A stretch of 12,896 nt of DNA from a virus (lineage: Duplodnaviria; Heunggongvirae; Uroviricota; Caudoviricetes). Position 1 is the stretch's first letter. Every line of letters begins with the position of its first letter. This document shows positions 372-12,896 of the stretch, piece by piece. The translations under genes and the position numbers were made by a program. The notes under the pieces were generated by a model that made no database searches, was not told the origin of the DNA, and worked only from the letters and a program-made list of their open reading frames with translations. Location of the stretch: the IMG/VR virus record IMGVR_UViG_2700989170_000001, positions 1-12,896 of that record, one strand, 5' to 3'.

Positions 372-412
372 AAAAAAGCCACCGTTGCAACTTAAGAGTC
401 ACTAACGGCAGC
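372..412 (-). terminator. Candidate intrinsic terminator just downstream of Q
   Basis: Minus-strand RNA would form a 9-bp stem GCUGCCGUU/AACGGUGGC (two G-U pairs) with a 17-nt loop, followed directly by UUUUUU (plus 372-377). The large loop makes this uncertain. Confidence 0.3.
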
Positions 413-429
413 TTACCTTCTAATTATGG

Positions 430-1133: not shown

Positions 1134-1492
1134 ACGTTCTCCAGTTCGGTGATTTTTATTCCAAGCCGTCCGCCTGGTACTTTCACACCACGAATTACGC
1201 GAATGTCATCGAATTGCTCGTCGTCTTCCGCAAATCCGGCGTGGATAAGGGAGTCGAGTAAACCTTTCAGGATGTTGTCGAGGTCGCGGCGGCGGGAGTC
1301 TGGAACGTCTGCGATGACTTTGATGCGGAGTCGTGATTTGGTGAAAATGTCTAACTTGAGTTGGCGGATGATTTGCTGAACGTCTTTTCGGTATTTCTGG
1401 CCTTTATCGCTGATGTAGTATTGACTCCCCCGTCTTCGCCAGTAGGTGTTCACCGACGGCGGGTAAGGAAGCGCAAACTGATATTCGTTCAT
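1130..1492 (-). CDS. rusA: Holliday-junction resolvase RusA (120 aa)
   Basis: The protein is 120 aa with RusA-like features (LPYPPSVNTYW, DVPDSRRRDLDNILKGLLDSL, GGRLGIKITE). It lies in the nin region, abutting the YbcO-like gene. Confidence 0.85.
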   Translation of the reverse strand: MNEYQFALPYPPSVNTYWRRRGSQYYISDKGQKYRKDVQQIIRQLKLDIFTKSRLRIKVIADVPDSRRRDLDNILKGLLDSLIHAGFAEDDEQFDDIRVIRGVKVPGGRLGIKITELENV

Positions 1493-1779
1493 GGCTTAAT
1501 CTTCCCCTCCTTCAGCAGTATCGCCTGCGTCCTGATCACGCCTTCGAGGTGGTAAAGTCTGGCGTCTTTGTTGTCGAGATTATGGGTGCGTCGGTCGATC
1601 TCCGCGTGGCAGTCACTACAAGCCCATGCGCCGATCAGGTCGTCAGGCTTCATTCCCGTTCCGCAAATTCCAGCCATCCGGTAATGTGCCAGAACTGTAG
1701 TTTCAGGATTGCCATTGCATACGCCGTAAATACGTACCTGGCATTCTCTGCCGCGTGCTTCTTTGCGTAGATTAGCCAT
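1489..1779 (-). CDS. YbcO/NinX-like Cys-rich protein (DUF1364-type, putative nuclease, 96 aa)
   Basis: The motifs ARGRECQVRIYGVCNGNPETTVLAH and CSDCHAEIDRRTH match the YbcO-like family that precedes rusA in lambdoid prophages. A GGAGG RBS precedes the ATG, which overlaps the antirepressor stop (TAATG). Confidence 0.7.
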   Translation of the reverse strand: MANLRKEARGRECQVRIYGVCNGNPETTVLAHYRMAGICGTGMKPDDLIGAWACSDCHAEIDRRTHNLDNKDARLYHLEGVIRTQAILLKEGKIKP

Positions 1780-2501
1780 TAAGCAGCCTCCCCTGTTACT
1801 TTCAGCATTCCGTTATCGAGCAGCTTTCTGGTCAGCCACTGTTGACCACGCCCGGTGATTTTTGTGGTGAACGATATCTGTATTCCGTGATTTGTGTTGA
1901 CCGCTGTTTCTTTCACTGTGAAATAGCCGCGATCCATATATTCCTGCATTGGCACATTGCGCCGGGAACCTGAAGCAATAAGGATTTTGTGATCACGCAT
2001 CCACGCAAACAGTTTGTTTTGACCAATACCAACAACCTTTGCAAAGTTTCCAATCAAAATTCCGCTGGCCTCGCCAACGCGATCGGCAAACTCAACTTTA
2101 GGTGCGGCAATTGCGAGCTGGTTTTCCAGTTGCATTTTCTGCTCAGCAAGATCAGCAGCAAGGCGCAACGCTTCTGGTAGCGTTTTTGGGATATTAACCG
2201 CAGTTTCTTCAAGCTCTCGCCAACGGTCAACAAGACGAGCGGTGAATTCCGGCGACAACTGGGCTACAACGACAATACTGTCTCGCTTTCCTTGTTCGCC
2301 TTCGAAGACGTAATGCTCGTACTGAACACTGAACCCTAAGTTATTGATTCTTTCGGAAACCTCAATTTGAGGAAGCCGGATAACACCATTTTTAGCCAGC
2401 GTTTCGATGGTACGTTTCACATTGTCATGACGCTTACCCACCAACTCAGCGATTTCAATGCTTGTCATTTTGATGGCATTGCCATTTATTAACTCATTCA
2501 T
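1779..2501 (-). CDS. Phage antirepressor / regulatory protein (Rha-like N-terminus, KilA-C/ANT-like C-terminus, 240 aa)
   Basis: The N-terminus (MTSIEIAELVGKRHDNVKRTIETL) is Rha-family-like and the C-terminus (GNFAKVVGIGQNKLFAWMRDHKILIASGSRRNVPMQEYMDRGYF) is ANT/KilA-C-like. An SD GAGGAA lies 7 nt upstream. It is inserted between ninF and the YbcO-like gene. Confidence 0.7.
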   Translation of the reverse strand: MNELINGNAIKMTSIEIAELVGKRHDNVKRTIETLAKNGVIRLPQIEVSERINNLGFSVQYEHYVFEGEQGKRDSIVVVAQLSPEFTARLVDRWRELEETAVNIPKTLPEALRLAADLAEQKMQLENQLAIAAPKVEFADRVGEASGILIGNFAKVVGIGQNKLFAWMRDHKILIASGSRRNVPMQEYMDRGYFTVKETAVNTNHGIQISFTTKITGRGQQWLTRKLLDNGMLKVTGEAA

Positions 2502-2664
2502 CGTCTTCTTCCTCGTACATTGAGCTATTCGGATCGCTCATCAGTTCTGCGCAGCAATCGGAGCACACGTGAACTTCCAGCACATGCAGTTTCTGACCGC
2601 AGTTAGCGCACGTTAAAGCCCGCTCGACGCTTTCTTGTTCGTAACTTCGATTTGGGTCAATCAC
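2494..2664 (-). CDS. ninF: NinF-like small Cys-rich protein (56 aa from GTG 2664; alternative ATG start at 2688)
   Basis: The C-terminus SYEQESVERALTCANCGQKLHVLEVHVCSDCCAELMSDPNSS resembles lambda NinF as I recall it. The GTG at 2664 has an upstream GAGGA and overlaps the ninE stop (GTGA). The ORF track extends this frame to 2955, but that stretch overlaps ninD and ninE and is unlikely to be translated. Confidence 0.65.
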   Translation of the reverse strand: MIDPNRSYEQESVERALTCANCGQKLHVLEVHVCSDCCAELMSDPNSSMYEEEDDE

Positions 2665-2837
2665 CTTGTTTTCCTCATGCGGTTCCATTTGGCCTGTAAC
2701 AGCCCGTAGACATAATCGAATGTCTTTACCTGGCTTTCTGTGGGGATTGGTTTCTTGCGGGATTTGGTGCGTTTGGTAGGAGTAAAAATCAGGTTGTCTA
2801 ACGCTATTTGAGTAATACTTCGTCGCTGTCTCGCCAC
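2661..2837 (-). CDS. ninE: NinE-like protein (58 aa, GTG start)
   Basis: I translated this frame by hand: [58 protein letters not shown]. It resembles lambda NinE as I recall it (RRQRRSIT...KPIPKESDVKTFNY...RKTR). There is no in-frame ATG; the GTG at 2837 is preceded by AAGGAGGA. It is absent from the ORF track because it is short and starts with GTG. Confidence 0.55.
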
Positions 2838-2977
2838 ACGTCCTCCTTTTCCTGCGGTAGTGGTAAAACTCCTGTTGGTGTTCTTTCACACCGGAGACAC
2901 CATCGATTCCAGTAAGGTTGATTTGGTCGGAAGCGGTTATCTTCTTTGCATTCACCGCACCGATAACATCGCATCAT
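2804..2977 (-). CDS. ninD: NinD-like small zinc-finger protein (57 aa)
   Basis: The sequence [14 protein letters not shown]...WCLRCERTP has two CxxC pairs. Its ATG at 2977-2975 overlaps the ninB TGA (ATGA). Its size and position match lambda ninD; the family assignment is from memory. Confidence 0.5.
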
Positions 2978-3414
2978 GCAGCCCGATCTCCCCATCGCGC
3001 TTTCCATTCGAGAGCCAGTCGCGCTTCGTCTGACCACTTAACGCCACGCTCTGTACCGAATGCCTGTATAAGCTCTAATAGCTCCGCAAATTCGCTTACA
3101 CGCATCCTGCTGGTTGACTGGCCTATTACCACAAAGCCATTCCCGGCAAGGTTAGGAACAACGTCCTGCTGCTTTAATGCTGCGGTAAACACACACTTCC
3201 AGCTTTCTGCATCCAGCCAGCGACCATGCCATTCAACCTGACGCGAAACGTCACCAAGGCAAGCCCAAAGCTTCCGATTTTGGTCTAAGCTGCGGTTGCG
3301 CTCCTGAATGGTTACTACGATTGGTTTGGTTGGGTCTGGAAGAATTTGCTGTACCGCGTGAATAGCGTTTTGCTGATGTGCTGGGGATCGAATTTCAAAG
3401 GTTAGTTTTTTCAT
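2974..3414 (-). CDS. ninB: Recombination protein NinB (Orf family, 146 aa)
   Basis: The 146-aa product ([34 protein letters not shown]...) appears essentially identical to lambda NinB as I recall it. Confidence 0.9.
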
Positions 3415-3607
3415 GACTTCCCTCTCTAACAGATTTCAGGTTATTCCACTCCGTTACCGCACTGCGATAATTCGCGGCCGCCACAGCGGCGTGGTTAGCG
3501 CAGTAGATTTGGCACCCGTTCTCCATGTCGAATATTGTCGGTGATTTTCCGCATTTACATTTTTTGGCACGCGGTGCGTCTGAACACATTCCGTTAACGG
3601 TGTCCAT
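3395..3607 (-). CDS. Hypothetical Cys-rich small protein (70 aa) at the position of lambda ren
   Basis: The ORF has a strong RBS (GAGGGGGA 5 nt upstream) and several Cys residues (CSDAPRAKKCKCG...GCQIYCANH). It overlaps the ninB start by 20 nt and follows a terminator hairpin. I recognise no family. Confidence 0.45.
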   Translation of the reverse strand: MDTVNGMCSDAPRAKKCKCGKSPTIFDMENGCQIYCANHAAVAAANYRSAVTEWNNLKSVREGSHEKTNL

Positions 3608-3630
3608 CAGGATCCCCCTCGTTCTTAATC

Positions 3631-3662
3631 CAATAAAAAAGGGCTACTGTGTAAATAGCCCC
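3631..3662 (-). terminator. Intrinsic terminator downstream of the helicase gene (tR2-like position)
   Basis: Minus-strand stem GGGCUA/UAGCCC (plus 3641-3646 and 3656-3661) with a 9-nt loop, followed by UUUUUUAUU (plus 3631-3640). It lies between the helicase stop and the next ORF. Confidence 0.5.
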
Positions 3663-3691
3663 TGTTATTAGCTCAGTGATGTAGATGGTCA

Positions 3692-5128
3692 TCAGAATCC
3701 TCCTTTCTTCTTGGACTGCGGCTCCTCGCGTTCACGGCGGCGCATTTCAGCAGACTGTTGGTCTGTGTCATAAATAGCGCCATTTGCCTGAATGCAATAC
3801 ACCGTGCCGGTATTGCCATGACGATTGAGACGAAGGATTAGTTCGGTTTCACCAGGTGGAACACTGTCATCAAAAGCACCTTCACGATGGATCCCCACCC
3901 AATAATCGCAATCCTGTTCAATCTGCCCTGTATCTCGTGAGTCACTTGGTAATGGGCGTTTATTGGTTCGGCTTTCCAGTGCGCGGTTAAGCTGCGTCAG
4001 AAGCACAACAACGCAATCAAGCTCTTTGGCAAGGTTCTTCAGTCCTTTGGTGATCATGCCGTAAGCAAGGTCGTTGCGATCGGCCTTCTCAGCGGTCATT
4101 AGTGTCAGGTAATCGACCAGAATCATGCCAACACATCCTTTTTCTCGCTTGATTCGACGGCTTTCGCTGACGATTTGAGCCAGAGATAATCCCGGCGTGT
4201 CGTCGATGTAAAGCAGGTCGATTTCACTCAAACGATTAGCTGTTTCGATCGCCCTGTTGAAGTCACCATCGTAATCACCCTGATAGCCGTCATCAGCGTC
4301 ATTTGTCGCCGGAAGGTAAAAAATATTCGGGTTAACACCAGACTTCTGCCCTACCAGTTTTTCCAGTATCTGGTCTCCTGGCATTTCAAGGCTGAACATC
4401 AGAGCGGGCTTTTTCTCATGCACTGCGCAGTTGATTGCCATCTGGCTGTATAGCGTCGTTTTCCCCATCTTAGGGCGAGCGCCAATGACAAACAGAGAGC
4501 CTTTCACCAGACCTTTCGGTGACAGCATCCTGTCCAGCGATGGGATCCCTGTGCTCATTCCCCGTTGTTCGCCTGATGGGTCAAATCGCTTCTCAAGGTC
4601 GCTAACCCAGTCTTCCATGACCTCACCAAATGAGCGAAGTCCGCGACGCGATCCGGTTTTTGCATGGTCTGTCAGTTGCGTGAAAATCGCCTGAATAGCT
4701 TCGTACTTCTGCGTTGCAGTCATTCCGTTGCGGGAATAGAGCAATTCCGTCGCTTCAGTCATGCGGTTGATGGCGTAGCGTTCCATTGCGGTTTCACGAA
4801 CCTGCATTGCATAGGCAACGATGTTTGCTGCGCTTGGCGTGTTCTTTGCGATCTCAGCGATATAAGCAAAACCGCCAACAGACACCGTTAACGATTTGCG
4901 CTCCAGTTCATCGAAAAGCGTCAGGCCATCTACTGGCTTTTGCTCCCGGTGCATTCTGGTTATTTCTTCGAAAAGAATTTTGTGTGGTCGGCTGTAAAAT
5001 GAATCAGGCTTCAGCATCGCCAGAACTTTCTGGACGCGCTCACTGCTGTCATCATCCAGAAGCAATCCACCAATCACCGCCTGCTCTGCCTCGATGCTAT
5101 GGGGCGGCGCATAAAAATTATCGGTCAT
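3692..5128 (-). CDS. DnaB-family replicative helicase (P-loop; P22 gp12-like), about 478 aa
   Basis: The N-terminus has the DnaB-type motif PPHSIEAEQAVIGGLL; Walker A is GARPKMGKT; a Walker B-like ILVDYLTLM follows. The ATG at 5128 has SD GAGGGTG upstream; the ORF-track start at 5143 is a GTG. The start overlaps the stop of the O-like gene by 11 nt. Confidence 0.9.
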   Translation of the reverse strand: MTDNFYAPPHSIEAEQAVIGGLLLDDDSSERVQKVLAMLKPDSFYSRPHKILFEEITRMHREQKPVDGLTLFDELERKSLTVSVGGFAYIAEIAKNTPSAANIVAYAMQVRETAMERYAINRMTEATELLYSRNGMTATQKYEAIQAIFTQLTDHAKTGSRRGLRSFGEVMEDWVSDLEKRFDPSGEQRGMSTGIPSLDRMLSPKGLVKGSLFVIGARPKMGKTTLYSQMAINCAVHEKKPALMFSLEMPGDQILEKLVGQKSGVNPNIFYLPATNDADDGYQGDYDGDFNRAIETANRLSEIDLLYIDDTPGLSLAQIVSESRRIKREKGCVGMILVDYLTLMTAEKADRNDLAYGMITKGLKNLAKELDCVVVLLTQLNRALESRTNKRPLPSDSRDTGQIEQDCDYWVGIHREGAFDDSVPPGETELILRLNRHGNTGTVYCIQANGAIYDTDQQSAEMRRREREEPQSKKKGGF

Positions 5129-5879
5129 CGTGTTCACCCTCACGAACTTTCAGGTAGGTATTATCGTTAAGCAGGAAATCAAATCCCTTTTTGTGCCAGA
5201 CGGTTCCGCGTTGATGGTTTGGACGCTCTTCGAACATCCATCGGCAATTTTCGCCTACGTAGCTCAAATAATTTCTCCAGTCCTGCATCGTGAACCCATG
5301 CCCGTCAAGCTGGCGGGTTATCACTCCGGCTTTGCGCCAGAACGTTCGGATCTGGTTTTTACGCTTGTCATTCAGTGCGCGGATTCTTGGCGCTTCAGGA
5401 AGGATTTCGTGGTAAGCATCGACAACATCCTGACAGCTAACGGAAGGTTTTTTCTTGTCAGACTTTTTGTCTGCTGTGGCACTCTCTAATACGTCAGTAT
5501 TAGAGATATTATTTATATTATTGTTTATGGACAACCGTTGGACAACCGTTGGACAATTTTTTGCCTGAAAATCGTCATATTTAACGATTGTAAACAGGCT
5601 AAATTTCTTCCCCATCGAGCAAATATTAAGCATCCCTTTCGACTCAAAAGTCCGTAATAAGCTCCGAACTTTGTTGTCTGGAATGAATGTTTCTCTGACC
5701 AGCGACGGGCGTCCAGTTATCATCTGACCGCGATCAACAGTTATCGGACCGATATCCGTATTGACGACAGTAGATTCGTGATTAGCCTTGAGGATTAAGT
5801 GAAGCCAAAGATGTACTGCCTGAGAGTCCTTATAGAGCCTGCTGTCCATAAACTGGCGGTGTATAGAGACATACCCCAT
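5118..5879 (-). CDS. Replication initiation protein (O-like organiser, with internal iterons), about 253 aa
   Basis: The ORF sits immediately upstream of, and is coupled to, the helicase. It contains direct repeats and an AT-rich tract, like ori within lambda O. The favoured start is the ATG at 5879 (MGYVSIH...), which has AGGAGG 8 nt upstream; the ORF-track start at 5942 has no comparable RBS. Confidence 0.75.
   Translation of the reverse strand: MGYVSIHRQFMDSRLYKDSQAVHLWLHLILKANHESTVVNTDIGPITVDRGQMITGRPSLVRETFIPDNKVRSLLRTFESKGMLNICSMGKKFSLFTIVKYDDFQAKNCPTVVQRLSINNNINNISNTDVLESATADKKSDKKKPSVSCQDVVDAYHEILPEAPRIRALNDKRKNQIRTFWRKAGVITRQLDGHGFTMQDWRNYLSYVGENCRWMFEERPNHQRGTVWHKKGFDFLLNDNTYLKVREGEHDDR
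5528..5556. repeat. Iteron-like direct repeats (probable replication origin) inside the O-like gene
   Basis: GGACAACCGTT occurs twice in tandem, followed by a partial third copy GGACAA and then TTTTTT. The upstream flank (5498-5527) is AT-rich. This matches the lambda arrangement of iterons plus an AT-rich region within the initiator gene. Confidence 0.6.
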
Positions 5880-5928
5880 ACTGGATGCCTCCTGATGTTG
5901 TACAGGGTTATGCCTGTAATCAGCTAAC

Positions 5929-6090
5929 TTAACGACGCCCATGTTTCACTCCTGCTTTGGCTAGTCTGTAAACACCAACAAGGCGCTCTGCGAACGCCCT
6001 GTTATTTGCTGCGGCTACCACTAATCCCTCAGGTGAATCAGGGTGTCGAATCTCTTCTTTTTCCTGGTATTTCTTACGACGTTTTGTCAT
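5929..6090 (-). CDS. Hypothetical small basic protein (53 aa) between cII and the replication gene
   Basis: I translated this by hand: MTKRRKKYQEKEEIRHPDSPEGLVVAAANNRAFAERLVGVYRLAKAGVKHGRR. AGGAG lies 5 nt upstream of the ATG. It is below the ORF-track size cutoff. It occupies the position where lambda O begins and overlaps the OOP promoter on the other strand. Confidence 0.35.
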   Translation of the reverse strand: MTKRRKKYQEKEEIRHPDSPEGLVVAAANNRAFAERLVGVYRLAKAGVKHGRR

Positions 6091-6100
6091 AATTACTCCT

Positions 6101-6177
6101 GTGGATTGATCCAGTAATGACCTCAGAATTCCATCTGGATTTGTTCAGAACGCTCGGTTGCCTCCGGGCGTTTTTTA
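6101..6177 (+). ncRNA. oop: OOP-like antisense RNA with t0-type intrinsic terminator
   Basis: The plus strand has a 7-bp stem CGCUCGG/CCGGGCG (6151-6157 and 6164-6170, one G-U pair) followed by TTTTTTATT. The sequence from 6101 (GTGGATTGATCCAGTAATGACCTCAGAATTCCATCTGGATTTGTTCAGAACGCTCGGTTGCCTCCGGGCGTTTTTTATT) closely matches lambda oop/t0 as I recall it. It is antisense to the 3' end of cII. Confidence 0.6.
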
Positions 6178-6419
6178 TTGGTGAGTCCATCAAGCGCATA
6201 CTTAAAAGCCCTGCTAATCGGACTGATGTCTGATGCCATTCCGAAAGCACACAAGACCGAAGCAATAAATCTCCAGTCCGTTCTGCTTATCTTCGATTCA
6301 TGACAGCCAATCATCTTTGCCAGACCGCGCTGGGTAAGCGTTGACAGGTTGATGAGTAAATCTGTTTCTGCGCGATCAACGTCGCGCTGTGATAGTTTGC
6401 TGTAACTTGTTTGTTCCAT
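6123..6419 (-). CDS. cII: Transcriptional activator CII (98 aa)
   Basis: The C-terminus LTNKKRPEATERSEQIQMEF and the HTH region KMIGCHESKISR resemble lambda CII. It sits between cro and the replication genes. Confidence 0.85.
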   Translation of the reverse strand: MEQTSYSKLSQRDVDRAETDLLINLSTLTQRGLAKMIGCHESKISRTDWRFIASVLCAFGMASDISPISRAFKYALDGLTNKKRPEATERSEQIQMEF

Positions 6420-6483
6420 TTCTTACTATTTCCATAGGTAAATAATCACTAATACTCATCTTTCGATGAGTGATTAATTAGTT

Positions 6484-6517
6484 ACCGCGTTGTCGGCGGT
6501 GCAGATTGATAAAGAGC
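6484..6517 (-). promoter_or_regulatory. nutR-like N-utilisation site (boxA plus boxB hairpin)
   Basis: Read on the minus strand: boxA GCTCTTTAT (plus 6509-6517), an 8-nt spacer, then boxB ACCGCCGACAACGCGGT (plus 6484-6500; 5-bp stem ACCGC/GCGGT with a GACAA loop core, P22-like as recalled). It lies between the cro stop and cII. Confidence 0.6.
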
Positions 6518-6528
6518 TGATCCGCTTA

Positions 6529-6744
6529 TTAAGCGGCTTTGTGTTCCGGCGGGAACACGTCATCAAGACTGACTTTTGCGCCTAACTTGTTTAGGCACGC
6601 AACAAGAGCACGGCATGTTTTAAGGTCTGGGAAGCGACGACCAGATTCCCAATGTCCGATAGCTCCCTGTGTGCATCCAACCGCCTTAGCAAGTGTTGTT
6701 TGAGAGATATTCAGTGACTCTCGATATTTTCGTAGGTTGCTCAT
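6529..6744 (-). CDS. cro: Cro-like HTH repressor (71 aa)
   Basis: The HTH is QTTLAKAVGCTQGAIGHWESG. The ATG at 6744 has GGAGGG upstream. It is divergent from cI and followed by nutR and cII. The ORF-track start at 6915 would overlap the operators and cI. Confidence 0.75.
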   Translation of the reverse strand: MSNLRKYRESLNISQTTLAKAVGCTQGAIGHWESGRRFPDLKTCRALVACLNKLGAKVSLDDVFPPEHKAA

Positions 6745-6770
6745 ATGCCCTCCATAGTAACCATGAAACA

Positions 6771-6849
6771 ATAATACGATATGTACTTTTGGAATGCAAA
6801 CAAAAAATACATCTTGTGCATGGATGGTTTTAGTACAGAGCGTAATAAT
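6771..6849. promoter_or_regulatory. Right operator/promoter region (OR with PR; PRM not located)
   Basis: PR candidate on the minus strand: -35 TTGCAT (plus 6794-6799), 17-bp spacer, -10 TATTAT (plus 6771-6776). Operator-like sites are TACGATATGTACTTT (6775-6789) and TTTAGTACAGAGCGTA (6829-6844), sharing the AGTACA-N3-CGTA core also seen in OL. Confidence 0.5.
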
Positions 6850-6861
6850 AAGGATATGAAG

Positions 6862-7515
6862 ATGAAATGGTATGAACTGGCTAGATCCAGAATGAAAGAA
6901 CTCGGCATAACTCAAGAGAAGTTAGCTGAAGAGCTTGGTATGACGCAGGGTGGAATTGGTCACTGGTTGCGCGGATCTCGTCATCCATCTCTTGACGAGA
7001 TTGGTGTGGTGTTTAAATACCTTGGTATTGATAACGTCTCATTCAACCACGACGGTACATTTTCACCTGTTGGCGAATACTCATCTGCCCCCGTTAAAAA
7101 ACAATATGAGTACCCTGTTTTTTCTCATGTTCAGGCCGGGATGTTCTCGCCTGAGCTTAGAACCTTTACCAAAGGTGATGCGGAGAGATGGGTCAGCACA
7201 ACCAAAAAAGCCAGTGATTGTGCGTTTTGGCTTGAAGTTGAAGGTAATTCCATGACCGCACCAACAGGATCCAAGCCAAGCTTTCCTGACGGGATGTTAA
7301 TTCTCGTTGACCCTGAGCAGGCTGTTGAGCCAGGTGATTTCTGCATAGCCAGACTTGGTGGTGACGAGTTTACCTTCAAGAAACTGATCAGGGATAGCGG
7401 TCAGGTGTTCCTACAACCACTAAACCCGCAATATCCAATGATCCCATGCAATGATAGCTGTTCCGTAGTAGGGAAAGTTATCGCCAGCCAGTGGCCTGAA
7501 GAGACATTTAGTTAA
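6862..7515 (+). CDS. cI: CI-type prophage repressor (N-terminal HTH, C-terminal S24/LexA-like autopeptidase), about 217 aa
   Basis: The HTH is [23 protein letters not shown]. There is an Ala-Gly site (VQAGMF), a GNSMTAP serine motif and a downstream FKKL lysine motif. The ATG at 6862 has AAGGA 7 nt upstream (6856 is an alternative). The ORF-track start at 6781 would lie inside the operator region. Confidence 0.85.
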
Positions 7516-7546
7516 CAGCCTCACCACTCTAAAACACACAACAATA

Positions 7547-7575
7547 ACCCGACCTTAGCGTCGGGTTTTCTTTTT
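7547..7575 (+). terminator. Intrinsic terminator downstream of cI
   Basis: A 7-bp perfect stem ACCCGAC/GTCGGGT (7547-7553 and 7560-7566) with a 6-nt loop is followed by TTTCTTTTT. Confidence 0.6.
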
Positions 7576-7626
7576 CCAAAATATAAATCAATAAAATACA
7601 AAGTGTTATAAAAAACTAACCACATT

Positions 7627-7669
7627 TAGAACATTTTGTATTAACTCAATAAAGTACACATCGTACTAT
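7627..7669 (+). promoter_or_regulatory. Left operator/promoter region (OL with PL)
   Basis: PL candidate: -35 TTAACT (7641-7646), 17-bp spacer, -10 TACTAT (7664-7669). The operator AAAGTACACATCGTA (7651-7665) is, in reverse complement, a 14/15 match to the OR site at 6775-6789. A weaker site is AGAACATTTTGTA (7628-7640). Confidence 0.5.
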
Positions 7670-7715
7670 TTAGCCATCAGCAGGAAGCTGGAAGCCAAAC
7701 GGAACAGATTGGCAG

Positions 7716-7749
7716 GCTCTTTAACTTCGATGGGGCGCTGACAAAGCGC
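7716..7749 (+). promoter_or_regulatory. nutL-like site (boxA plus boxB)
   Basis: boxA GCTCTTTAA (7716-7724) is followed by boxB GCGCTGACAAAGCGC (7735-7749; stem GCGCU/AGCGC with a GACAA pentaloop, as I recall for P22 boxB). It lies in the PL leader, about 120 nt upstream of N. Confidence 0.6.
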
Positions 7750-7868
7750 AAACAGATACCAAACGAGATGGGTTTGGCGGTGATGTGAATTGCAGCTGCA
7801 ACGACAGCAACCAGAAGATCAGCACCTGGCGCATCACCACCAAAGCCATTTCACATGAGGAAAATATC

Positions 7869-8177
7869 ATGACGGTAATCGTGTACGGGAAATCAACATT
7901 TGCAGGAAATGCCAAAACTCGCCGTCATGAGCGGCGCAGAAAGCTGGCTATCGAGCGTGATGCTATATGCAACATCATCGATTCGATCTTCGGCACAGAC
8001 AGTGAGGAACCTGTTCAGGAAGCCCCGAGAAAACGTTTAATCCTTTCTGAAAAAGCAATATCACTCGGCAACATTCGTAACCAAAATACCGACGAATGCA
8101 GTGGAAGTATTTGCCTGCCAAACGTAGCTCTTTACGCGGCAGGCTACCGGAAATCAAAACAACTGACAGCCAGGTAA
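7869..8177 (+). CDS. N: Antitermination protein N (P22 gp24-like, arginine-rich motif), 102 aa
   Basis: The N-terminus MTVIVYGKSTFAGNAKTRRHERRRKLAIER carries the arginine-rich RNA-binding motif and resembles P22 N as I recall it. The ATG at 7869 has GAGGA upstream. The ORF-track start at 7785 would overlap nutL. Confidence 0.8.
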   Translation: MTVIVYGKSTFAGNAKTRRHERRRKLAIERDAICNIIDSIFGTDSEEPVQEAPRKRLILSEKAISLGNIRNQNTDECSGSICLPNVALYAAGYRKSKQLTAR

Positions 8178-8180
8178 GTG

Positions 8181-8405
8181 ATGAATCAGACATACATTCC
8201 ATCATGCTTGAGAAATCTGCCAAAGCAGAAAGCAAAGCCCCGCAAGCAAGCCATAAAGGACGCTAAGGCAGAGGTTATTGATCAAGCAATACAATTGCTC
8301 AGGGAGGAGTTAAGAAGTGGCAAGCTCGAAGGAATGATGATGCCTTATCAGCGCGGATATCTATCGGCTATTAGTAAGTTGGAAGTATTGAAGAGTGAAT
8401 TATGA
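8181..8405 (+). CDS. Hypothetical protein (74 aa) immediately downstream of N
   Basis: AGGT lies 5 nt upstream of the ATG at 8181. The ORF is charged and lysine-rich, runs in the direction of the PL operon, and I recognise no family. Confidence 0.5.
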   Translation: MNQTYIPSCLRNLPKQKAKPRKQAIKDAKAEVIDQAIQLLREELRSGKLEGMMMPYQRGYLSAISKLEVLKSEL

Positions 8406-8467
8406 ACTATCTGGAATTTCCGGATGGTTCATTGTTTTGGCAGCAAACCACTTATTTGAGGTGAGAT

Positions 8468-8554
8468 ATGGAAGAAGAATTTGAAGAGTTCGAAGAGCAT
8501 CCTCAGGATGTGATGGAACAATACCAGGACTATCCTTATGACTACGACTATTGA
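8468..8554 (+). CDS. Candidate small acidic peptide (28 aa: MEEEFEEFEEHPQDVMEQYQDYPYDYDY)
   Basis: A strong SD GAGGTGA lies 3-4 nt upstream of the ATG. The upstream 20-aa ORF (8402-8464) overlaps the orf74 stop by ATGA and ends inside this SD. It is too small to call with confidence. Confidence 0.3.
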   Translation: MEEEFEEFEEHPQDVMEQYQDYPYDYDY

Positions 8555-8771
8555 TAAGAATCAATGGAGTGGACAATACGAACGACGGCAATGATTGCCA
8601 GAGAACTTGGTAAACAGAACAACAAAGCTGCCTGATAGTGGCCTTTATTTTTGGCATAAATAACAGAATAAACACTGCACTGTGTATTCATTCCAACGAG
8701 TGAATACACGGAGCAATGTCGCTCGTAACTAAACAGGAGCCGACTTGTTCTGATTATTGGAAATCTTCTTT

Positions 8772-8795
8772 GCCCTCCAGTGTGAGGGCTTTTTT
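8772..8795 (+). terminator. Intrinsic terminator upstream of the cIII-like gene (tL-type)
   Basis: A perfect 6-bp stem GCCCTC/GAGGGC (8772-8777 and 8784-8789) with a 6-nt loop is followed by TTTTTAT. Confidence 0.55.
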
Positions 8796-8861
8796 ATATG
8801 CATACCAATAACGCTTCATTCGAGGCGTTTTCGTTATGCAATCAAACAGAAGGAGCATCCT

Positions 8862-9032
8862 ATGCAACAGTTCGCTATTGCAGGGGCGGCATCGGTTCGC
8901 CCTTTCAACCCAATTTTATCGGTACAGCATTCACGAAAAAATATTTTAACCGGAGCAGACTTTAAACAACCAAGAATGAAAAGTTTGCTCGAAAAGCTTT
9001 GGGATATTTTGAAACAACAAGGCCGTCCATGA
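8862..9032 (+). CDS. CIII-like protein (putative FtsH inhibitor), 56 aa
   Basis: The N-terminus MQQFAIAG and the segment SLLEKLWDILKQQG resemble lambda CIII as I recall it (MQYAIAG...ESLLERITRKLRDGWKRLIDILNQPG). AAGGAG lies 6 nt upstream of the ATG. The ORF-track TTG start at 8757 would run through the terminator. Confidence 0.5.
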   Translation: MQQFAIAGAASVRPFNPILSVQHSRKNILTGADFKQPRMKSLLEKLWDILKQQGRP

Positions 9033-9136
9033 GTTTTACAGATAACTGGTCAGACGAAGAATTCATTCGTCAGATGAACAAAATGCTCAATCAGCACAAA
9101 GAACAGGAGAAAGATGATGATTCTGACTCTGAATGA
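9029..9136 (+). CDS. Candidate small ORF (35 aa) overlapping the cIII-like stop (kil-like position)
   Basis: Its ATG overlaps the cIII-like TGA (ATGA). The product is MSFTDNWSDEEFIRQMNKMLNQHKEQEKDDDSDSE. Its 3' end overlaps the start of the next ORF in another frame. Confidence 0.3.
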   Translation: MSFTDNWSDEEFIRQMNKMLNQHKEQEKDDDSDSE

Positions 9137-9425
9137 TAAGCGTGAAATATCGCAAATCATCGCAAGTTTTACCGATGATGATTACGAACGAATCAACAGT
9201 GAAGTTGATCGCCTCTGCAAACGTTGCGACCCAATAAGCGAAATGCTTCGCTCATATAAACCAGATGAACACACTAAGGACGCTATCGACTGGCTGGAAG
9301 ATGATGACTGTAACTATCAGGAAAAAGCCGCTGAATGGTTCTGGGATGCAATAACCGAAAGAGTTAAGGCTGAATATGCCTTCGCAATATTCAAACGCAG
9401 ACACATTTTTGGAGAAGCTGCATGA
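9114..9425 (+). CDS. Hypothetical acidic protein (103 aa) immediately upstream of the recombinase
   Basis: AGGAGAAAG lies upstream of the ATG, and its stop overlaps the RecT ATG (ATGA). By position it corresponds to lambda gam or P22 abc, but I see no sequence similarity to support that. Confidence 0.6.
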   Translation: MMILTLNDKREISQIIASFTDDDYERINSEVDRLCKRCDPISEMLRSYKPDEHTKDAIDWLEDDDCNYQEKAAEWFWDAITERVKAEYAFAIFKRRHIFGEAA

Positions 9426-10324
9426 GCAATATCGTTGAATTCGTTAAACAGCAGGAGCAGTTATTCTGCGGAGCATTGACTGAACAGACGGTGACATGGG
9501 CTAAGGAAAGCCAGTTTGCAATTCAGTATTTCCAGAAAAACGATTACCTGGCTAAAACAGCACTGGCAAATCCAACCAGCGCACAGAACGCCATCATCAA
9601 TGTTGCGGCGATCGGCATCACCTTAAACCCGGCCAGCAAACTGGCTTATCTGGTTCCTCGCGACGGCATGGTGTGCCTTGATATCAGTTACATGGGATTA
9701 CTTCATCTTGCGCAATCGACAGGATCAATTAAGTGGGGGCAATGCAAACTGGTGTACTCAAACGACACCTATGAATCAAATGGCCTTGATTCAGCACCAA
9801 CCCACAAATACAACGCATTTGGTGAGCGAGGCTCTATTGTTGGAGGTTATTGCACGGTTAAAACAGCAGATGGTGACTACCTGACTGAAGAAATGAGTCT
9901 GGCAGAAATTAAAGCTGTGGAAGCAACGAGCAAGGCAAAGAATGGACCGTGGAAAACATTCTGGGAAGAGATGGCGCGTAAAACAATAGTTAAACGCGCC
10001 AGCAAATACTGGCCTAAAGCCCAGCGACTGGATAATGCCATTCACCTGCTTAACGAAGATGAAGGTATGCATCAGGAACCAGTTATGCCGCACAAATCAG
10101 AGGAAGATATCCGCGAAGATGAACGGAAACGCCAGCAGGAAATAATGGATAAAGCACAACTTCTTTGCGATGAAATGGCTCAGGCAGAAAACATGGATGA
10201 TTTGAAGCGATATTTTGCAGAAGCATATCGCCTGACATCTGGAATGAAATTGCAGCAGAACGTACAAGCCATTTACATAGAATGCAAAGCGAAACTGGAG
10301 GTTGCCAGTGAGCAAACTGTATGA
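9422..10324 (+). CDS. RecT-family single-strand annealing protein (300 aa)
   Basis: The central region (AIINVAAIGITLNPASKLAYLVPRDG, GPWKTFWEEMARKTIVKRASKYWP) looks RecT-like. It sits in the early-left operon where lambdoid phages carry their recombinase. Confidence 0.75.
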   Translation: MSNIVEFVKQQEQLFCGALTEQTVTWAKESQFAIQYFQKNDYLAKTALANPTSAQNAIINVAAIGITLNPASKLAYLVPRDGMVCLDISYMGLLHLAQSTGSIKWGQCKLVYSNDTYESNGLDSAPTHKYNAFGERGSIVGGYCTVKTADGDYLTEEMSLAEIKAVEATSKAKNGPWKTFWEEMARKTIVKRASKYWPKAQRLDNAIHLLNEDEGMHQEPVMPHKSEEDIREDERKRQQEIMDKAQLLCDEMAQAENMDDLKRYFAEAYRLTSGMKLQQNVQAIYIECKAKLEVASEQTV

Positions 10325-10790
10325 AATAGCCAATGAATACGCAAAGCTGATGGATTCAGATTTAGAGCCAGAGATGATTGCTGACACAATAGAAGGCATG
10401 GAAGGAGAATTTACCGATAAAATAGAGCAACTTCTTGCCATTATTAAAAATGAATATGGTTATGCTGAACGCCTCAAGGACGAGGCAAAGTCACTAAATG
10501 AGCGAGCCGCAGTAATTCAAAATAAGATTGACAGCATTATGGCGTATATAGCGTCATCGCTTGAAATGGTTGGCAAGAAAAAGATTCGAGCAGGTATTCA
10601 CCAGGTAACAATCCGCAAACCGTCAGAAACTGTAGAAATCATCGACTCAAGCGCCCTTCCTCCTGAATACGTTGAGTTCGAAACGACAATTAAAGCCGAC
10701 AAACTGGCAATCAAACACCAACTAAAAGCAGGAATAAATATCCCCGGTGCTCAACTCAAAGTTGGGAAACCTTCACTTCTTATCAAATAA
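10308..10790 (+). CDS. Gp157-like protein (recombination-module accessory), about 160 aa
   Basis: The protein starts MSKLYEIANEYAKL and contains ADTIEGMEGEFTDK and INIPGAQL, which fits the Gp157 family commonly found next to phage annealases. The GTG at 10308 has GGAG 7 nt upstream and lies in the last codons of RecT. The ORF-track TTG at 10302 is an alternative. Confidence 0.6.
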   Translation: MSKLYEIANEYAKLMDSDLEPEMIADTIEGMEGEFTDKIEQLLAIIKNEYGYAERLKDEAKSLNERAAVIQNKIDSIMAYIASSLEMVGKKKIRAGIHQVTIRKPSETVEIIDSSALPPEYVEFETTIKADKLAIKHQLKAGINIPGAQLKVGKPSLLIK

Positions 10791-10801
10791 CGGTATCGCC
10801 T

Positions 10802-11116
10802 ATGAAAAAGACTCCATGGGAGAAATGGGAAGTCGATTTCTTGCGCGAGGTAGCGGCGACAATGCCAGTTGAAGTTATCGCAGAAAAACTGGAAAGGACT
10901 GAAAAAGCAGTAATGGCGAAAGCAACAAGGATTGGCGCTGACATTGTTAGCCGACTTCGTGGAAGACGATGGACAAGAGCCGAAGTATCACTTTTCGGTA
11001 AGTTCTCCGCAGAAGAAATAGCAATTGCAACCTGCCGCTCAATTTATTCAGTAAGAGCTATGCGATACAAGCTAAAAAAACTCGATGAAGAAAGAGCAGG
11101 CATACGAATAAATTAA
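10802..11116 (+). CDS. Hypothetical protein (104 aa) with two internally similar helix-rich halves
   Basis: The two halves are alike ([25 protein letters not shown]... and [25 protein letters not shown]...), suggesting a tandem HTH-like domain. The RBS is weak. I recognise no family. Confidence 0.55.
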
Positions 11117-11132
11117 CAAAGAGGAATTTACC

Positions 11133-11300
11133 ATGAGAGGACTTGCATACAATCCCGGCATTCTTCCGGCAGAAATGATTATTCGCCAACGCGTAAAGCC
11201 AATGCCATCGAGAGAGGAATTGCTTAAGAGAAATTCTTTTCCATCAGTGAATCAAAACAAATATCTGAATGCGATGTGGCGTAAAGGAGGCAACCAGTGA
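11133..11300 (+). CDS. Hypothetical small protein (55 aa)
   Basis: GAGGA lies 7 nt upstream of the ATG at 11133. The stop overlaps the GTG start of the next gene (GTGA). It is below the ORF-track cutoff and was found by hand translation. Confidence 0.45.
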
Positions 11301-11869
11301 GCGAGATTAATTACCAGGCACTGCGTGAGGCCGCAGAGAAGGCTACGAAAGGTCAGTGGGCTGTTGAATTCGACGATGAGATTTACTCCACTGACGGCGT
11401 GAACCATGAGCAAATAGCTATGGTGTTCAGTGAAAACGAATCGCGTGATGCTGCTTTCATCGCCGCAGCCAATCCCGCTACCGTCTTGGCGCTGCTGGAT
11501 GAGCTGGAAAGAAACCAGCAATACATCAAATCCCGCGACCAGGAGAACGAGGAAATTGCGCTAACGGTAGGGAAGCTGCGCGTTGAGCTGGAAGCCGCAG
11601 AAGCGCTGAATAAACACTTGGAGTTAGCAATCCGAAAAGCTGATGGTTGTAGCGAGGCGTTAAGGAGAAAAACAGAAGCCGCAGAGAAGCGCATCGCTGA
11701 ACTGGAGGCGCGGGAGGTTGTGCTTCCGCAATGCTATAGCATGTTGCATCGCGTCGATTTTGACGAGCCTTACCACACTGAAATGGTTTACAGGCAGCAT
11801 CAGGTTCTTGAGGCACTGCACAACGCTGGAATAAACGTCACCGAAGCATGTAAAGGAGAGGCATCATGA
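11297..11869 (+). CDS. Ead/Ea22-like protein (190 aa)
   Basis: The N-terminus [18 protein letters not shown]...[21 protein letters not shown] is typical of the Ead/Ea22-like family of lambdoid early-left operons. The GTG start has AAGGAGG 7 nt upstream. Confidence 0.7.
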
Positions 11870-12540
11870 GCACTATCACAAGAGAATGGCTGCAGCAGGC
11901 TATCAACGATTATGAAAGCGTTCGTGATGAGCTTCCTTTCGGGCTTGATGATTACCAGGGGAATATCCTGGCTGCCCTGCGTATTGCACTGGCATCGCTG
12001 GAAGCAGAGCCTATTGGCGCATTCCACATTGCAGAACAGCAAGTTGACGGCACAAGTGACTACATCAAGGATGGGGAATGGCCTATTGATAATGGGATTA
12101 TTGAAGTCTACGCCGCTCCGCCAGTACCGGTAGTACCTGCTGCATTACCTGAGAACGACGATGAGGATGGGCATGACATTGATTATCTTGAGCCATCTGA
12201 AGTTTACGCGCTTGGGCGAACAGCTGGCTGGAACGCCTGCCGCGCCGCCATGCTTCAGGGTAAATCCGAACAACCACAAAACGCACAACAAAATATTCCG
12301 GAAAATATTCCCGGTGGCAACTCTCCGGTAACTCCTGATGGTTGGATAAGCTGTAGTGATCGAATGCCGGAAGACACCAAAATGTTACTGGCATTTAGTC
12401 AAGGTGAAATCGTGGCCGCATATTGGAACTGGGTTGCAAATCCAATTGATTACAAAAAATATAGAGCTTTCACGTATTTATCAGGATATATCTTGGATGA
12501 CGTAACTCACTGGATGCCGCTACCAGAGCCTCCACTTTGA
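11866..12540 (+). CDS. DUF551-like prophage protein (224 aa)
   Basis: The C-terminus DGWISCSDRMPE...THWMPLPEPP looks like the DUF551 domain. The ATG overlaps the upstream stop (ATGA). The middle is acidic and Pro-rich. Confidence 0.65.
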   Translation: MSTITREWLQQAINDYESVRDELPFGLDDYQGNILAALRIALASLEAEPIGAFHIAEQQVDGTSDYIKDGEWPIDNGIIEVYAAPPVPVVPAALPENDDEDGHDIDYLEPSEVYALGRTAGWNACRAAMLQGKSEQPQNAQQNIPENIPGGNSPVTPDGWISCSDRMPEDTKMLLAFSQGEIVAAYWNWVANPIDYKKYRAFTYLSGYILDDVTHWMPLPEPPL

Positions 12541-12636
12541 AAGCGAAGCTTATACATATCTTTTACATCAGCAATCTATTGTTAATCTCCAATCAATGTT
12601 ACGTTGTCATCTCACTCATGCTTTGGAGGTAGTGAT

Positions 12637-12816
12637 ATGTCTTGTCCAAAATGCGGTTCTGGAAATATTGCAAAAGAAAAAACAATGCGTGGATGGTCTG
12701 GTGATTATGTGTGCTGCGATTGCGGATACAACGACTCTAAAGACGCATTTGGAGAGCGTGGTAAAAACGAGTTTGTCAAAATTAATAAAGAACGCGAAGG
12801 CAACGAAAAAAGCTAA
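12637..12816 (+). CDS. Small zinc-ribbon protein (59 aa; CPKCG ... CCDCG)
   Basis: GGAGG lies 7 nt upstream of the ATG at 12637. Two Cys pairs (CPKC and CCDC) are spaced for a zinc ribbon. The ORF-track start at 12604 has no RBS. Confidence 0.5.
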   Translation: MSCPKCGSGNIAKEKTMRGWSGDYVCCDCGYNDSKDAFGERGKNEFVKINKEREGNEKS

Positions 12817-12896
12817 TTTATTTATTCATATATGAAAACAATGTAACCAATATTCGATTTGAAGAACTGAAAGAACACCAAGCCGCCTGATGGCGG

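What the first reader, a model, noticed from the sequence alone, without database searches (positions are those of the whole stretch)
9029..9425. Unassigned ORFs at the kil/gam (anti-RecBCD) position directly upstream of the RecT-type recombinase
A 35-aa ORF overlaps the cIII-like stop as lambda kil does, and a 103-aa acidic ORF is coupled by ATGA to RecT. In lambda and P22 the genes just upstream of the recombinase include host-takeover and anti-RecBCD functions (kil, gam, abc). Neither ORF resembles Gam as I recall it. The 103-aa protein is therefore a candidate for a different RecBCD- or defence-interfering factor, based on position only.
Basis: inference. Interest (0 to 1): 0.55.

Follow-up and report, generated by a model that had tools for sequence, protein, structure and literature searches.

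The report
Hidden Gam-like nuclease inhibitor gene
The 103-codon gene just before the phage recombinase encodes a small acidic helical protein whose predicted shape best matches lambda Gam, the classic inhibitor of the bacterial DNA-degrading enzyme RecBCD, so it is probably an unrecognised version of that inhibitor; the 35-codon ORF next to it is not the kil gene.

Summary
The window is the pL operon of an HK140/mEpX1/Kapi1-type lambdoid prophage.

The 103-aa protein belongs to a small family of unknown function, called fam103 here (PHROG 3486, no Pfam or NCBIfam model). It comprises 51 clusters among 1.84 billion representatives, found in enterobacterial prophages and annotated "hypothetical". 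It is under purifying selection.

The gene always opens the recombination module, whatever follows it: RecT+Gp157, RecT+Exo, Bet+YqaJ or a RecE-like nuclease. In 20 comparable SAP+lambda-type-Exo modules that slot holds Gam, phi80 GamL (one a divergent Gam-H1-like protein) or this family, never two.

I therefore read it as a third sequence type of Gam-fold protein and a likely RecBCD inhibitor. This is inferred, not tested. Sequence similarity to Gam is marginal and Gam's N-terminal motif is absent.

The 35-aa ORF is not kil. Kapi1 has a true kil upstream of it. It matches the N-terminus of HK97 gp42.1.

The parts
8862..9032 (+). cIII-like gene (56 aa), upstream neighbour. Its stop overlaps the start of the 35-aa ORF.
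   Evidence: PHROG 550 'CIII', E 1e-22. Annotated cIII in HK140, mEpX1 and Kapi1.
9029..9136 (+). 35-aa acidic ORF (MSFTDNWSDEEFIRQM...). It is the N-terminal homologue of HK97 gp42.1 and SPN9CC 60-aa proteins with a different, short C-terminus. It is not kil. It sits at a mosaic joint. Function unknown.
   Evidence: PHROG 17766 E 5e-16 and PHROG 2123 E 3.5e-10 over residues 1-20/32. tblastn finds 92 phage records, with identity confined to residues 1-21/28. HK97 gp42.1 and SPN9CC ORFs. Kapi1 order is cIII-kil-this ORF. It shares only an SDEEFI motif with P22 Arf, which is a different PHROG (2445).
9114..9425 (+). 103-aa gene (102 aa if started at 9117). It is a member of an uncharacterised acidic all-helical family ('fam103', PHROG 3486) with a predicted Gam-like fold. 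Proposed RecBCD inhibitor and first gene of the recombination module.
9422..10324 (+). RecT-family single-strand annealing protein (300 aa), translationally coupled (ATGA) to the 103-aa gene.
   Evidence: PF03837 E 2.5e-33 and PHROG 148 E 1.8e-91. 57% identical to phi80 RecT.
10302..10790 (+). Sipho_Gp157 / Mu-Gam-like protein (about 160 aa; likely start GTG 10309 after GGAGG). In the literature this is the module's recognised end-protection / anti-RecBCD candidate.
   Evidence: PF05565 E 3.2e-36, weak PF07352 Phage_Mu_Gam E 0.009, PHROG 253 'Mu Gam-like end protection' E 1.2e-52. Sequence context. PMC12315714 lists HK140 as SAP-4 + MuGam.
10802..11116 (+). 104-aa basic protein (pI 10) that flanks the recombination module on the far side. 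It is also conserved next to the alternative module in SEN22. It was labelled 'Abc1-like' in phage Gally, but that label is not supported.
   Evidence: PHROG 11492/323 and weak HTH_12. 91% identical in SEN22. No BLASTP alignment to P22 Abc1 at E<=100.

Best explanation
The 103-aa gene (9114/9117-9425) encodes a previously unrecognised sequence type of lambda-Gam-fold protein. It is transcribed from pL after cIII and translated just ahead of, and coupled to, the recombinase. [quoted passage not shown] That would protect linear and rolling-circle phage DNA and leave ends to the phage's own RecT pathway.

What is shown here:
- It is a real, conserved, selected gene.
- Its predicted fold is closest to GamS.
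- It always opens the Rec module.
- It is interchangeable with Gam or GamL in front of the same SAP+Exo genes.

What is inferred: dimerisation, RecBCD as the target, and inhibition rather than modification.

The adjacent 35-aa ORF is a separate small ORF at a mosaic joint (HK97 gp42.1 N-terminus type). It is not kil, and it is not a conserved partner of the family.

For: 2. Slot equivalence. ENT47670 and Midgardsormr38 read cIII-(kil)-fam103-RecT-Exo. Their RecT is 68-81% identical to phi80 RecT and their Exo 80-87% identical to lambda Exo. Lambda has gam and phi80 has gamL at that position. Among 20 species-representative genome loci with a lambda-type Exo and an SAP gene upstream of it, the gene directly upstream of the SAP is Gam in 5, GamL-type in 11, fam103 in 3 and a divergent Gam-H1-like protein in 1. 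None has two.

3. Partner independence. The family precedes RecT+Gp157 (window, L011), RecT+Exo (L003, L004, L046-48), Bet-type+YqaJ (L012, L016) and a RecE-like/DUF3799 nuclease (SEN22, L013). That fits a host-directed function better than a cofactor of one recombinase.

4. Physical properties. Length is about 100 aa, all helical, median pI 4.64 and net charge -9 across 36 members. GamS is 98 aa with net charge -10, and GamL is 93 aa with -7.

5. Weak colinear sequence signal. The motif DDDxx[YF]QE[KR]xAE lies at residues 63-74, against GamS 67-78. BLASTP gives E 0.004 and hhalign P 0.0035-0.004. A gapless profile diagonal scores z about 3.6 at that offset. D8, E11 and P40 coincide with no offset between the two N-termini.

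6. No other inhibitor and no Chi. The whole genomes of ENT47670 and Midgardsormr38 have no Gam, GamL, Abc2 or Gp157 and zero Chi sites. SEN22, listed in PMC12315714 as lacking anti-RecBCD, carries this gene and is reported with 0/0 Chi.

7. Precedent. An unannotated gene in this slot, Photorhabdus Plu2934, was shown to act like Red-gamma in recombineering (PMC4381043).
Against: - No sequence method places the family with Gam. PF06064 is not hit by any of 36 members. A profile search of PDB sequences does not list 2uuz at E<=10. hhalign probabilities are only 4.5-9%.
- The N-terminal motif MNAY..DR.E..W links Gam and GamL (hhalign probability 90%). It forms the helix that plugs the RecB channel in the Gam-RecBCD structure (PMC5218532). 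That motif is absent from fam103.
- Foldseek against BFVD did not retrieve Gam.
- In this window and all HK140-type phages the gene coexists with a Mu-Gam-like Gp157. If both blocked RecBCD, one would seem redundant. There is precedent, though: HK639 has GamL plus MuGam (PMC12315714).
- The Chi counts are weak evidence, because only about 0.7 sites per strand are expected by chance.
- No binding or phenotype data exist.
Confidence: 0.62

Rival explanations
1. Accessory recombination cofactor, a functional analogue of P22 Arf. The protein would bind or chaperone the downstream recombination proteins (RecT/Bet, or the nuclease) or link them to host SSB, rather than acting on a host nuclease.
For: - It lies immediately upstream of the SSAP and is translationally coupled to it. 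That is the position of arf relative to erf in P22.
- Arf is also small and very acidic (net charge -11).
- PMC12315714 notes that Arf and Abc1 aid recombination by unknown mechanisms.
- It coexists with another putative anti-RecBCD protein, Gp157, in this window.
Against: - The family precedes at least three unrelated downstream partners: phi80-type RecT, lambda-Bet-type, and a RecE-like nuclease with no SAP. A specific protein-protein cofactor would be expected to co-vary with one partner.
- There is no similarity to Arf, which is PHROG 2445 rather than 3486.
- The best fold match is Gam, not any recombination mediator.
- It is mutually exclusive with Gam and GamL in the same slot.
Confidence: 0.12
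2. A Gam-fold DNA mimic aimed at a different host target. Candidates are SbcCD, another nuclease or helicase, or a DNA-sensing defence system. It would complement the Mu-Gam-like Gp157, which deals with RecBCD.
For: - The fold is Gam-like, but the N-terminal helix motif used by Gam to enter RecB is not conserved.
- It co-occurs regularly with Gp157 in HK140-type modules.
- Gam itself has been reported to affect SbcCD (PMC5218532).
- Acidic DNA mimics are known to be retargeted between enzymes (general knowledge).
Against: - In RecT+Exo and Bet+YqaJ modules it is the only candidate in the gam slot, and no other anti-RecBCD gene is present in the two whole genomes checked.
- It is mutually exclusive with Gam and GamL.
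- There is no PADLOC hit or other defence-related hit.
Confidence: 0.15
3. The Gam resemblance is a coincidence of small helical proteins. On this reading the gene is a moron or a host-takeover gene of unrelated function that merely sits at a mosaic boundary next to the Rec module.
For: - Sequence statistics against Gam are not significant on their own.
- Foldseek gave nothing.
- In SEN22 the block cIII-35aa-103aa is shared while the module behind it is swapped exactly at the end of the gene. So it can be seen as belonging to the upstream block.
Against: - Gam is rank 1 of 48,164 chains with two different models, and it is the one structure predicted a priori by gene position.
- The match improves as model confidence improves, while the other hits get worse.
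- The gene sits immediately upstream of a recombination gene in all 17 fam103 loci where the downstream gene could be read, from at least nine enterobacterial genera (Escherichia, Salmonella, Cronobacter, Erwinia, Dryocola, Enterobacter, Pantoea, Atlantibacter, Jejubacter). The one partial exception has a single 107-aa gene inserted between them.
Confidence: 0.08

Closest known systems
Lambda Gam (Red-gamma; Pfam PF06064; PDB 2uuz, RecBCD complex 5MBV)
   Same: - Same gene slot: pL operon, after cIII/kil and directly before the annealing protein.
- Similar size (98 aa for GamS against 102-103 aa).
- All helical with the same order of helices, acidic (net charge -10 against -9).
- Shared DDDxx[YF]QE[KR]xAE segment at colinear positions.
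   Different: - No significant HMM or profile match.
- Lacks the N-terminal MNAY..DR.E..W helix motif.
- Its own conserved motifs differ (EVERL, NP, WD..T.RV..EYA).
- Often coexists with a Mu-Gam-like Gp157.
- Dimer formation and RecBCD binding are untested.
phi80 GamL (PHROG 1050, 'gam-like host nuclease inhibitor')
   Same: It sits directly upstream of a phi80-type RecT that is 57-81% identical to the RecTs that follow fam103. It is about 93 aa, acidic and helical. PMC12315714 reports a Gam-like predicted fold. It is interchangeable with fam103 in front of the same SAP+Exo genes.
   Different: GamL is detectably homologous to Gam in the N-terminal helix (hhalign probability 90%), whereas fam103 is not. 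hhalign of fam103 against GamL is not significant (E 0.13). In phi80, GamL is annotated as toxic without its partner Mog/Agt. No such partner gene is seen next to fam103.
Photorhabdus Plu2934 (Plu-gamma; PMC4381043)
   Same: It was an unannotated small gene in the same slot of a Red-like operon. It was assigned a Gam-like role from a weak HHpred hit to 2uuz plus recombineering assays. This shows that the slot predicts function.
   Different: Its reported similarity is to Gam's N-terminal helix H1, as in the Xenorhabdus protein in L055. The fam103 signal lies in the C-terminal half. I could not obtain the Plu2934 sequence, so whether it belongs to fam103 is untested.
P22 Arf (PHROG 2445) and HK97 gp42.1 (PHROG 2123/1723), for the 35-aa ORF
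   Same: All are small acidic ORFs between kil and the annealing-protein gene. The first 16 residues of the 35-aa ORF are identical to HK97 gp42.1 (16 of the first 21 match). It shares an SDEEFI motif with Arf.
   Different: The ORF has only 35 aa, with an unrelated tail. There is no HMM match to Arf. The other fam103 loci carry a different small ORF (PHROG 2180) or none. No function is known for gp42.1.

Membership tests
Lambda Gam family (PF06064 / Gam fold) | Match to the Pfam PF06064 profile or other significant sequence similarity | tested here: not met
   No PF06064 hit for the window protein or any of 36 family members at E<=5. 2uuz is absent from the PDB profile search at E<=10. hhalign finds only a local match, P 0.0035-0.009 and probability 4.5-9%.
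Lambda Gam family (PF06064 / Gam fold) | Gam three-dimensional fold (long N-terminal helix, two short helices, long C-terminal helix) | tested here: met
Lambda Gam family (PF06064 / Gam fold) | N-terminal helix H1 motif (MNAYxxxDRxExxxW) that enters the RecB ssDNA channel | tested here: not met
   Gam and GamL share the motif (hhalign probability 90%). fam103 keeps only D8 and E11 in register. The N-terminal diagonal score is not distinctive (z about 2.3, tied with another offset).
Lambda Gam family (PF06064 / Gam fold) | Small, acidic, DNA-mimic-like composition | tested here: met
   103 aa, pI 4.64, net charge -9. The family median is the same. GamS has pI 4.99 and net charge -10.
Lambda Gam family (PF06064 / Gam fold) | Gene position: pL operon, immediately upstream of the annealing-protein gene of the Rec module | tested here: met
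   Seen in the window and in 17 related loci where the downstream gene could be read. Mutually exclusive with Gam and GamL in the same slot.
Lambda Gam family (PF06064 / Gam fold) | Homodimer that binds RecBCD and blocks DNA-end binding | not testable with these tools
   No multimer prediction or biochemistry was available.
phi80 GamL (PHROG 1050) | Profile match to PHROG 1050 or a GamL alignment | tested here: not met
   The window protein hits only PHROG 3486. phi80 GamL hits PHROG 1050. hhalign of fam103 against a 13-sequence GamL alignment gives E 0.13.
Kil (lambda/HK97-type or P22-type), for the 35-aa ORF | Sequence similarity to Kil, and position directly after cIII | tested here: not met
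   tblastn with lambda, Kapi1/HK97 and P22 Kil finds nothing in the window. In Kapi1 and HK97 the true kil lies between cIII and this ORF.
P22 Arf (PHROG 2445), for the 35-aa ORF | Profile match to PHROG 2445 | tested here: not met
   The 35-aa ORF hits PHROG 17766/2123 only. Arf hits PHROG 2445 only. The only shared feature is an SDEEFI motif.
P22 Abc2 / Mu Gam (other anti-RecBCD types), for the 103-aa protein | Sequence similarity to Abc2 or to Phage_Mu_Gam/Sipho_Gp157 | tested here: not met
   There is no Abc2 hit in the window. The Gp157/Mu-Gam-like match belongs to the separate gene at 10302-10790.

The most novel reading that the evidence does not exclude
The family may be a Gam-fold DNA mimic whose divergent N-terminal helix retargets it away from RecBCD inhibition. 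It might act on another host nuclease or on a DNA-end-sensing defence system. Alternatively it might modify RecBCD rather than block it, as P22 Abc2 does. Either would explain why it is kept alongside a Mu-Gam-like end-binding protein in exonuclease-less RecT modules.
Probability: 0.18. Interest if true: 0.7.

Novelty: new variant of a known kind. Interest (0 to 1): 0.5.

Why it matters
The most recent survey of lambdoid recombination modules (PMC12315714) recognises four anti-RecBCD types. It scores phages such as SEN22 as having none, and HK140 as relying on a Mu-Gam-like protein. If this family is a fifth, Gam-fold type, several consequences follow.

- Some 'no anti-RecBCD' modules are misclassified. 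That bears on the paper's correlation between Chi-site content and the absence of an inhibitor.
- The gene is common. It is in about 5% of complete E. coli genomes and in prophages of Salmonella, Enterobacter, Cronobacter, Erwinia, Pantoea and Atlantibacter.
- It could serve as a host-adapted Gam substitute for recombineering, as Plu-gamma did.
- It may be an unlisted trigger or target for defence systems that monitor RecBCD, such as retron Ec48, OLD, Gabija and Kiwa.

It is not a new principle. The expected mechanism is the known one.

Tried and rejected
- Pfam, NCBIfam and PADLOC scans of both ORFs gave nothing above noise. A Pfam scan of all 36 family members gave only scattered chance hits.
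- The first homologous-protein search returned only close relatives.
- A profile search of PDB sequences gave no meaningful hit.
- Foldseek against BFVD gave no significant hit except probable family members.
- hhalign against single Gam or GamL sequences and against profiles gave only marginal local scores.
- The supplement of PMC12315714 is not held, so I could not see how ENT47670, Midgardsormr38 or Edno5 were classified.
- I could not obtain the Plu2934 sequence. The genome scan returned Xenorhabdus but not Photorhabdus luminescens.
- I considered and rejected the 35-aa ORF as kil and as a demonstrable Arf homologue.
- I considered and rejected the Gally annotation of 10802-11116 as Abc1-like.
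- Rfam found no RNA family in the window.
- The Chi-site counts are consistent with the proposal but too weak to weigh much.

Full report
**Setting**

The window is the early region of a lambdoid, HK140/mEpX1/Kapi1/Gally-like (Lederbergvirus-type) prophage. On the + strand the pL operon reads as follows:
- N (ending at 8177)
- a PHROG 5305 gene (8178-8405)
- an ORF-poor stretch with a terminator-like hairpin
- cIII (8862-9032)
- the 35-aa ORF (9029-9136)
- the 103-aa ORF (9114-9425)
- RecT (9422-10324)
- a Sipho_Gp157/Mu-Gam-like gene (10302-10790)
- a 104-aa basic protein (10802-11116)
- Ead/Ea22 and DUF551 genes

The region 8700-10900 is 93-98% identical to phages Gally, HK140, mEpX1, E212 and EC.P3. 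The finding's interval itself is present in 265 of 5,426 complete E. coli genomes. NCBI's annotation calls the 103-aa product 'hypothetical protein'.

The ATGA overlaps cIII/35-aa and 103-aa/RecT are there. The 103-aa ORF has an AGGAG 6-9 nt ahead of its two consecutive ATGs, and it overlaps the end of the 35-aa ORF. The 103-aa protein is acidic, with pI 4.64 and net charge -9.

It is a genuine gene:
- It is found full length in 19 phage records.
- A profile search of 1.84 billion representative proteins finds 51 clusters, nearly all stand-alone proteins of about 100 aa.
- dN/dS is 0.05-0.35 where it can be measured.
- Named members come from Escherichia, Salmonella, Enterobacter, Jejubacter, Pantoea and Atlantibacter, all as 'hypothetical protein'. 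Cronobacter and Erwinia phages also carry it.

**The 35-aa ORF is not kil**

In Kapi1 the order is cIII, Kil (50 aa), then exactly this 35-aa ORF, then the 103-aa gene. Many E. coli prophages likewise have kil abutting the region. No Kil of the lambda, HK97 or P22 type is detectable in the window.

The ORF's first 16 residues (MSFTDNWSDEEFIRQM) are identical to the N-terminus of HK97 gp42.1, and 16 of the first 21 residues match. HK97 gp42.1 lies between kil and erf. The first 32 residues match a 60-aa ORF in P22-like Salmonella phages at 78% identity. After that the sequences diverge.

It therefore marks a mosaic joint. It shares an SDEEFI motif with P22 Arf, the small 'accessory recombination function' gene that sits just before erf. 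However, Arf is a different PHROG, and no profile links them.

Other loci that carry the 103-aa family have a different small ORF (PHROG 2180) or none in front of it. So the 35-aa ORF is not a partner of the family. There are too few substitutions to test whether it is under selection.

**What the 103-aa protein looks like**

Ordinary sequence methods say nothing. The protein hits PHROG 3486 (unknown function) only. There is no Pfam, NCBIfam, PADLOC or PDB-sequence match.

**Sequence echoes**

There are echoes of Gam, but they are weak.
- BLASTP and hhalign both pick the same colinear segment. It is residues 54-80 of the window protein against GamS 58-84, containing DDDCNYQEKAAE against DDDVEFQERMAE. 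The P or E values are 0.0035-0.009 for the single comparison.
- A gapless profile-diagonal scan puts that offset 3.6 sd above the mean for the C-terminal halves.
- With no offset between the two N-termini, D8, E11 and P40 coincide in Gam, GamL and the family.
- However, the N-terminal diagonal is not distinctive.
- The MNAY..DR.E..W motif ties Gam to phi80 GamL (hhalign probability 90%). It forms the helix that plugs the RecB channel (PMC5218532). That motif is absent here.

**Genomic context is the second main line of evidence**

The family is always the first gene of the recombination module, usually overlapping the next start codon. What follows varies:
- RecT + Gp157 in the window, HK140-type phages and L011
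- RecT + Gp157 with one extra 107-aa gene inserted in L014/L015
- phi80-type RecT + lambda-type Exo in ENT47670, Midgardsormr38 and L046-L048
- lambda-Bet-type SAP + YqaJ nuclease in L012 and L016
- a RecE-like/DUF3799 nuclease with no annealing protein in SEN22 and L013

A cofactor specific to one recombinase would not be expected to behave this way.

I scanned one genome per bacterial species for lambda-Exo relatives and set aside lambda contamination. In the 20 loci with an SAP gene upstream of Exo, the gene directly upstream of the annealing protein was:
- Gam in 5 loci
- phi80-GamL-type in 11 loci
- this family in 3 loci
- a divergent Gam-H1-like protein in 1 locus (Xenorhabdus)

No locus had two of them, although the RecT and Exo genes behind them are 68-97% identical to one another.

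Lambda, phi80, P22, HK97 and SPN9CC lack the family. No locus carrying the family has Gam, GamL or Abc2. The complete genomes of ENT47670 and Midgardsormr38 contain no other known anti-RecBCD gene and no Chi site on either strand. The Chi result is weak, since fewer than one site per strand is expected by chance.

**Relation to the literature**

Zheng, Casjens and colleagues (PMC12315714) analysed 325 lambdoid phages. They recognise Gam, GamL, Abc2 and MuGam as the anti-RecBCD types. They describe HK140 as SAP-4 + MuGam with no nuclease, and SEN22 as a prototype with no anti-RecBCD and 0/0 Chi sites. The gene studied here is not mentioned in the text I could read; the supplement is not held.

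Yin et al. (PMC4381043) showed that Plu2934 acts like Red-gamma in recombineering. Plu2934 was an unannotated gene in the same slot of a Photorhabdus operon. That is a precedent for trusting the slot. From their description Plu2934 resembles Gam's N-terminal helix, so it is probably of the GamL/Gam type. I could not test this.

Other searches found no description of this family.

**Conclusion and confidence**

The best explanation is that 9114-9425 encodes a third sequence type of Gam-fold protein and acts as the module's RecBCD inhibitor. I put this at about 0.62.

Demonstrated here:
- the gene is real and under selection
- the predicted fold is closest to Gam
- the gene always opens the Rec module
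- it is interchangeable with Gam and GamL

Inferred, not demonstrated:
- dimerisation
- the target
- the mode of action

The main reasons for caution are the lack of significant sequence similarity, the missing H1 motif, and the regular coexistence with a Mu-Gam-like Gp157 in this very window. Together these leave room for a retargeted or modifying Gam-fold protein (about 0.15-0.18), an Arf-like recombination cofactor (about 0.12), or a coincidental resemblance (about 0.08).

The kil analogy for the 35-aa ORF was not.

Noticed in passing
window 10302-10790: The gene after RecT is a Sipho_Gp157 protein (PF05565, E 3e-36) with a weak Phage_Mu_Gam match. PHROG 253 labels it 'Mu Gam-like end protection'. 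The module has no exonuclease gene. The likely start is GTG 10309 after GGAGG, not the TTG at 10302.
   Followed up: partly
window 10802-11116: This 104-aa basic protein (pI 10, weak HTH_12, PHROG 323/11492) is annotated in phage Gally as 'Anti-RecBCD protein 1, similar to P22 Abc1'. It has no BLASTP alignment to P22 Abc1 at all. The same gene (91% identical) flanks the alternative recombination module of SEN22, and a 53% relative follows Exo in L040.
   Followed up: partly
L002 (SEN22) 5309-6699 compared with window 9422-10790: This is a clean module swap. Between the same flanking genes (the 103-aa gene and the 104-aa basic protein), SEN22 has a RecE-like PD-(D/E)XK nuclease plus a 189-aa protein, instead of RecT plus Gp157. 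Nucleotide identity to the window stops exactly at the stop codon of the 103-aa gene.
   Followed up: partly
window 9029-9032; compare L008 (Kapi1) 2852-3004: kil is absent from this window. In Kapi1, HK97 and many E. coli prophages a 50-aa kil sits between cIII and the 35-aa ORF, with the same ATGA-type junctions.
   Followed up: yes
window 9411-9425 and the C-termini of family members; L044, L045, L050, L055: Nearly all family members end in E-A-A or E-V-A. The codons (GGAGAAGCTGCATGA here) double as the Shine-Dalgarno sequence and start of the next gene. Several GamL-type proteins of Erwinia, Pantoea and Mixta end the same way (…GEVA, …EAS). The junction with RecT therefore seems to be conserved independently of which gene precedes it.
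   Followed up: no
window 8402-8861: This is an ORF-poor stretch of about 450 bp between the PHROG 5305 gene and cIII. It contains four terminator-like hairpins, against 0.9 expected. They include GCCCTC-CAGTGT-GAGGGC followed by T6 at 8772-8789, at the place where HK97 and mEpX1 records annotate a tL terminator.
   Followed up: no
L014 4306-4629 and L015 2043-2366: In one metagenomic lineage a 107-aa gene with Pfam PF27050 (Phage_P22_Y8K6) is inserted between the 103-aa-family gene and RecT. This is the only case seen where the two are not adjacent.
   Followed up: no
L020-L031, L049, L051, L053-L061, L066, L067, L069-L071: Many 'genomes' of unrelated organisms (Shewanella, Bradyrhizobium, Streptomyces, Oceanobacillus and others) contain contigs 97-100% identical to lambda exo/bet/gam at low coverage. 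These are almost certainly lambda control-DNA contamination in the assemblies.
   Followed up: no
BFVD entry A0A3G3BYC6 (Edwardsiella phage Edno5, 104 aa): This protein is a weak Foldseek match to the model (TM 0.46). PMC12315714 cites Edno5 as having a SAP-4 + RecE module with no anti-RecBCD protein. It may be a distant member of the same family.
   Followed up: no
window 1-12896: There is no Chi site (GCTGGTGG) on either strand of the window, and no Rfam family reaches its gathering score.
   Followed up: yes
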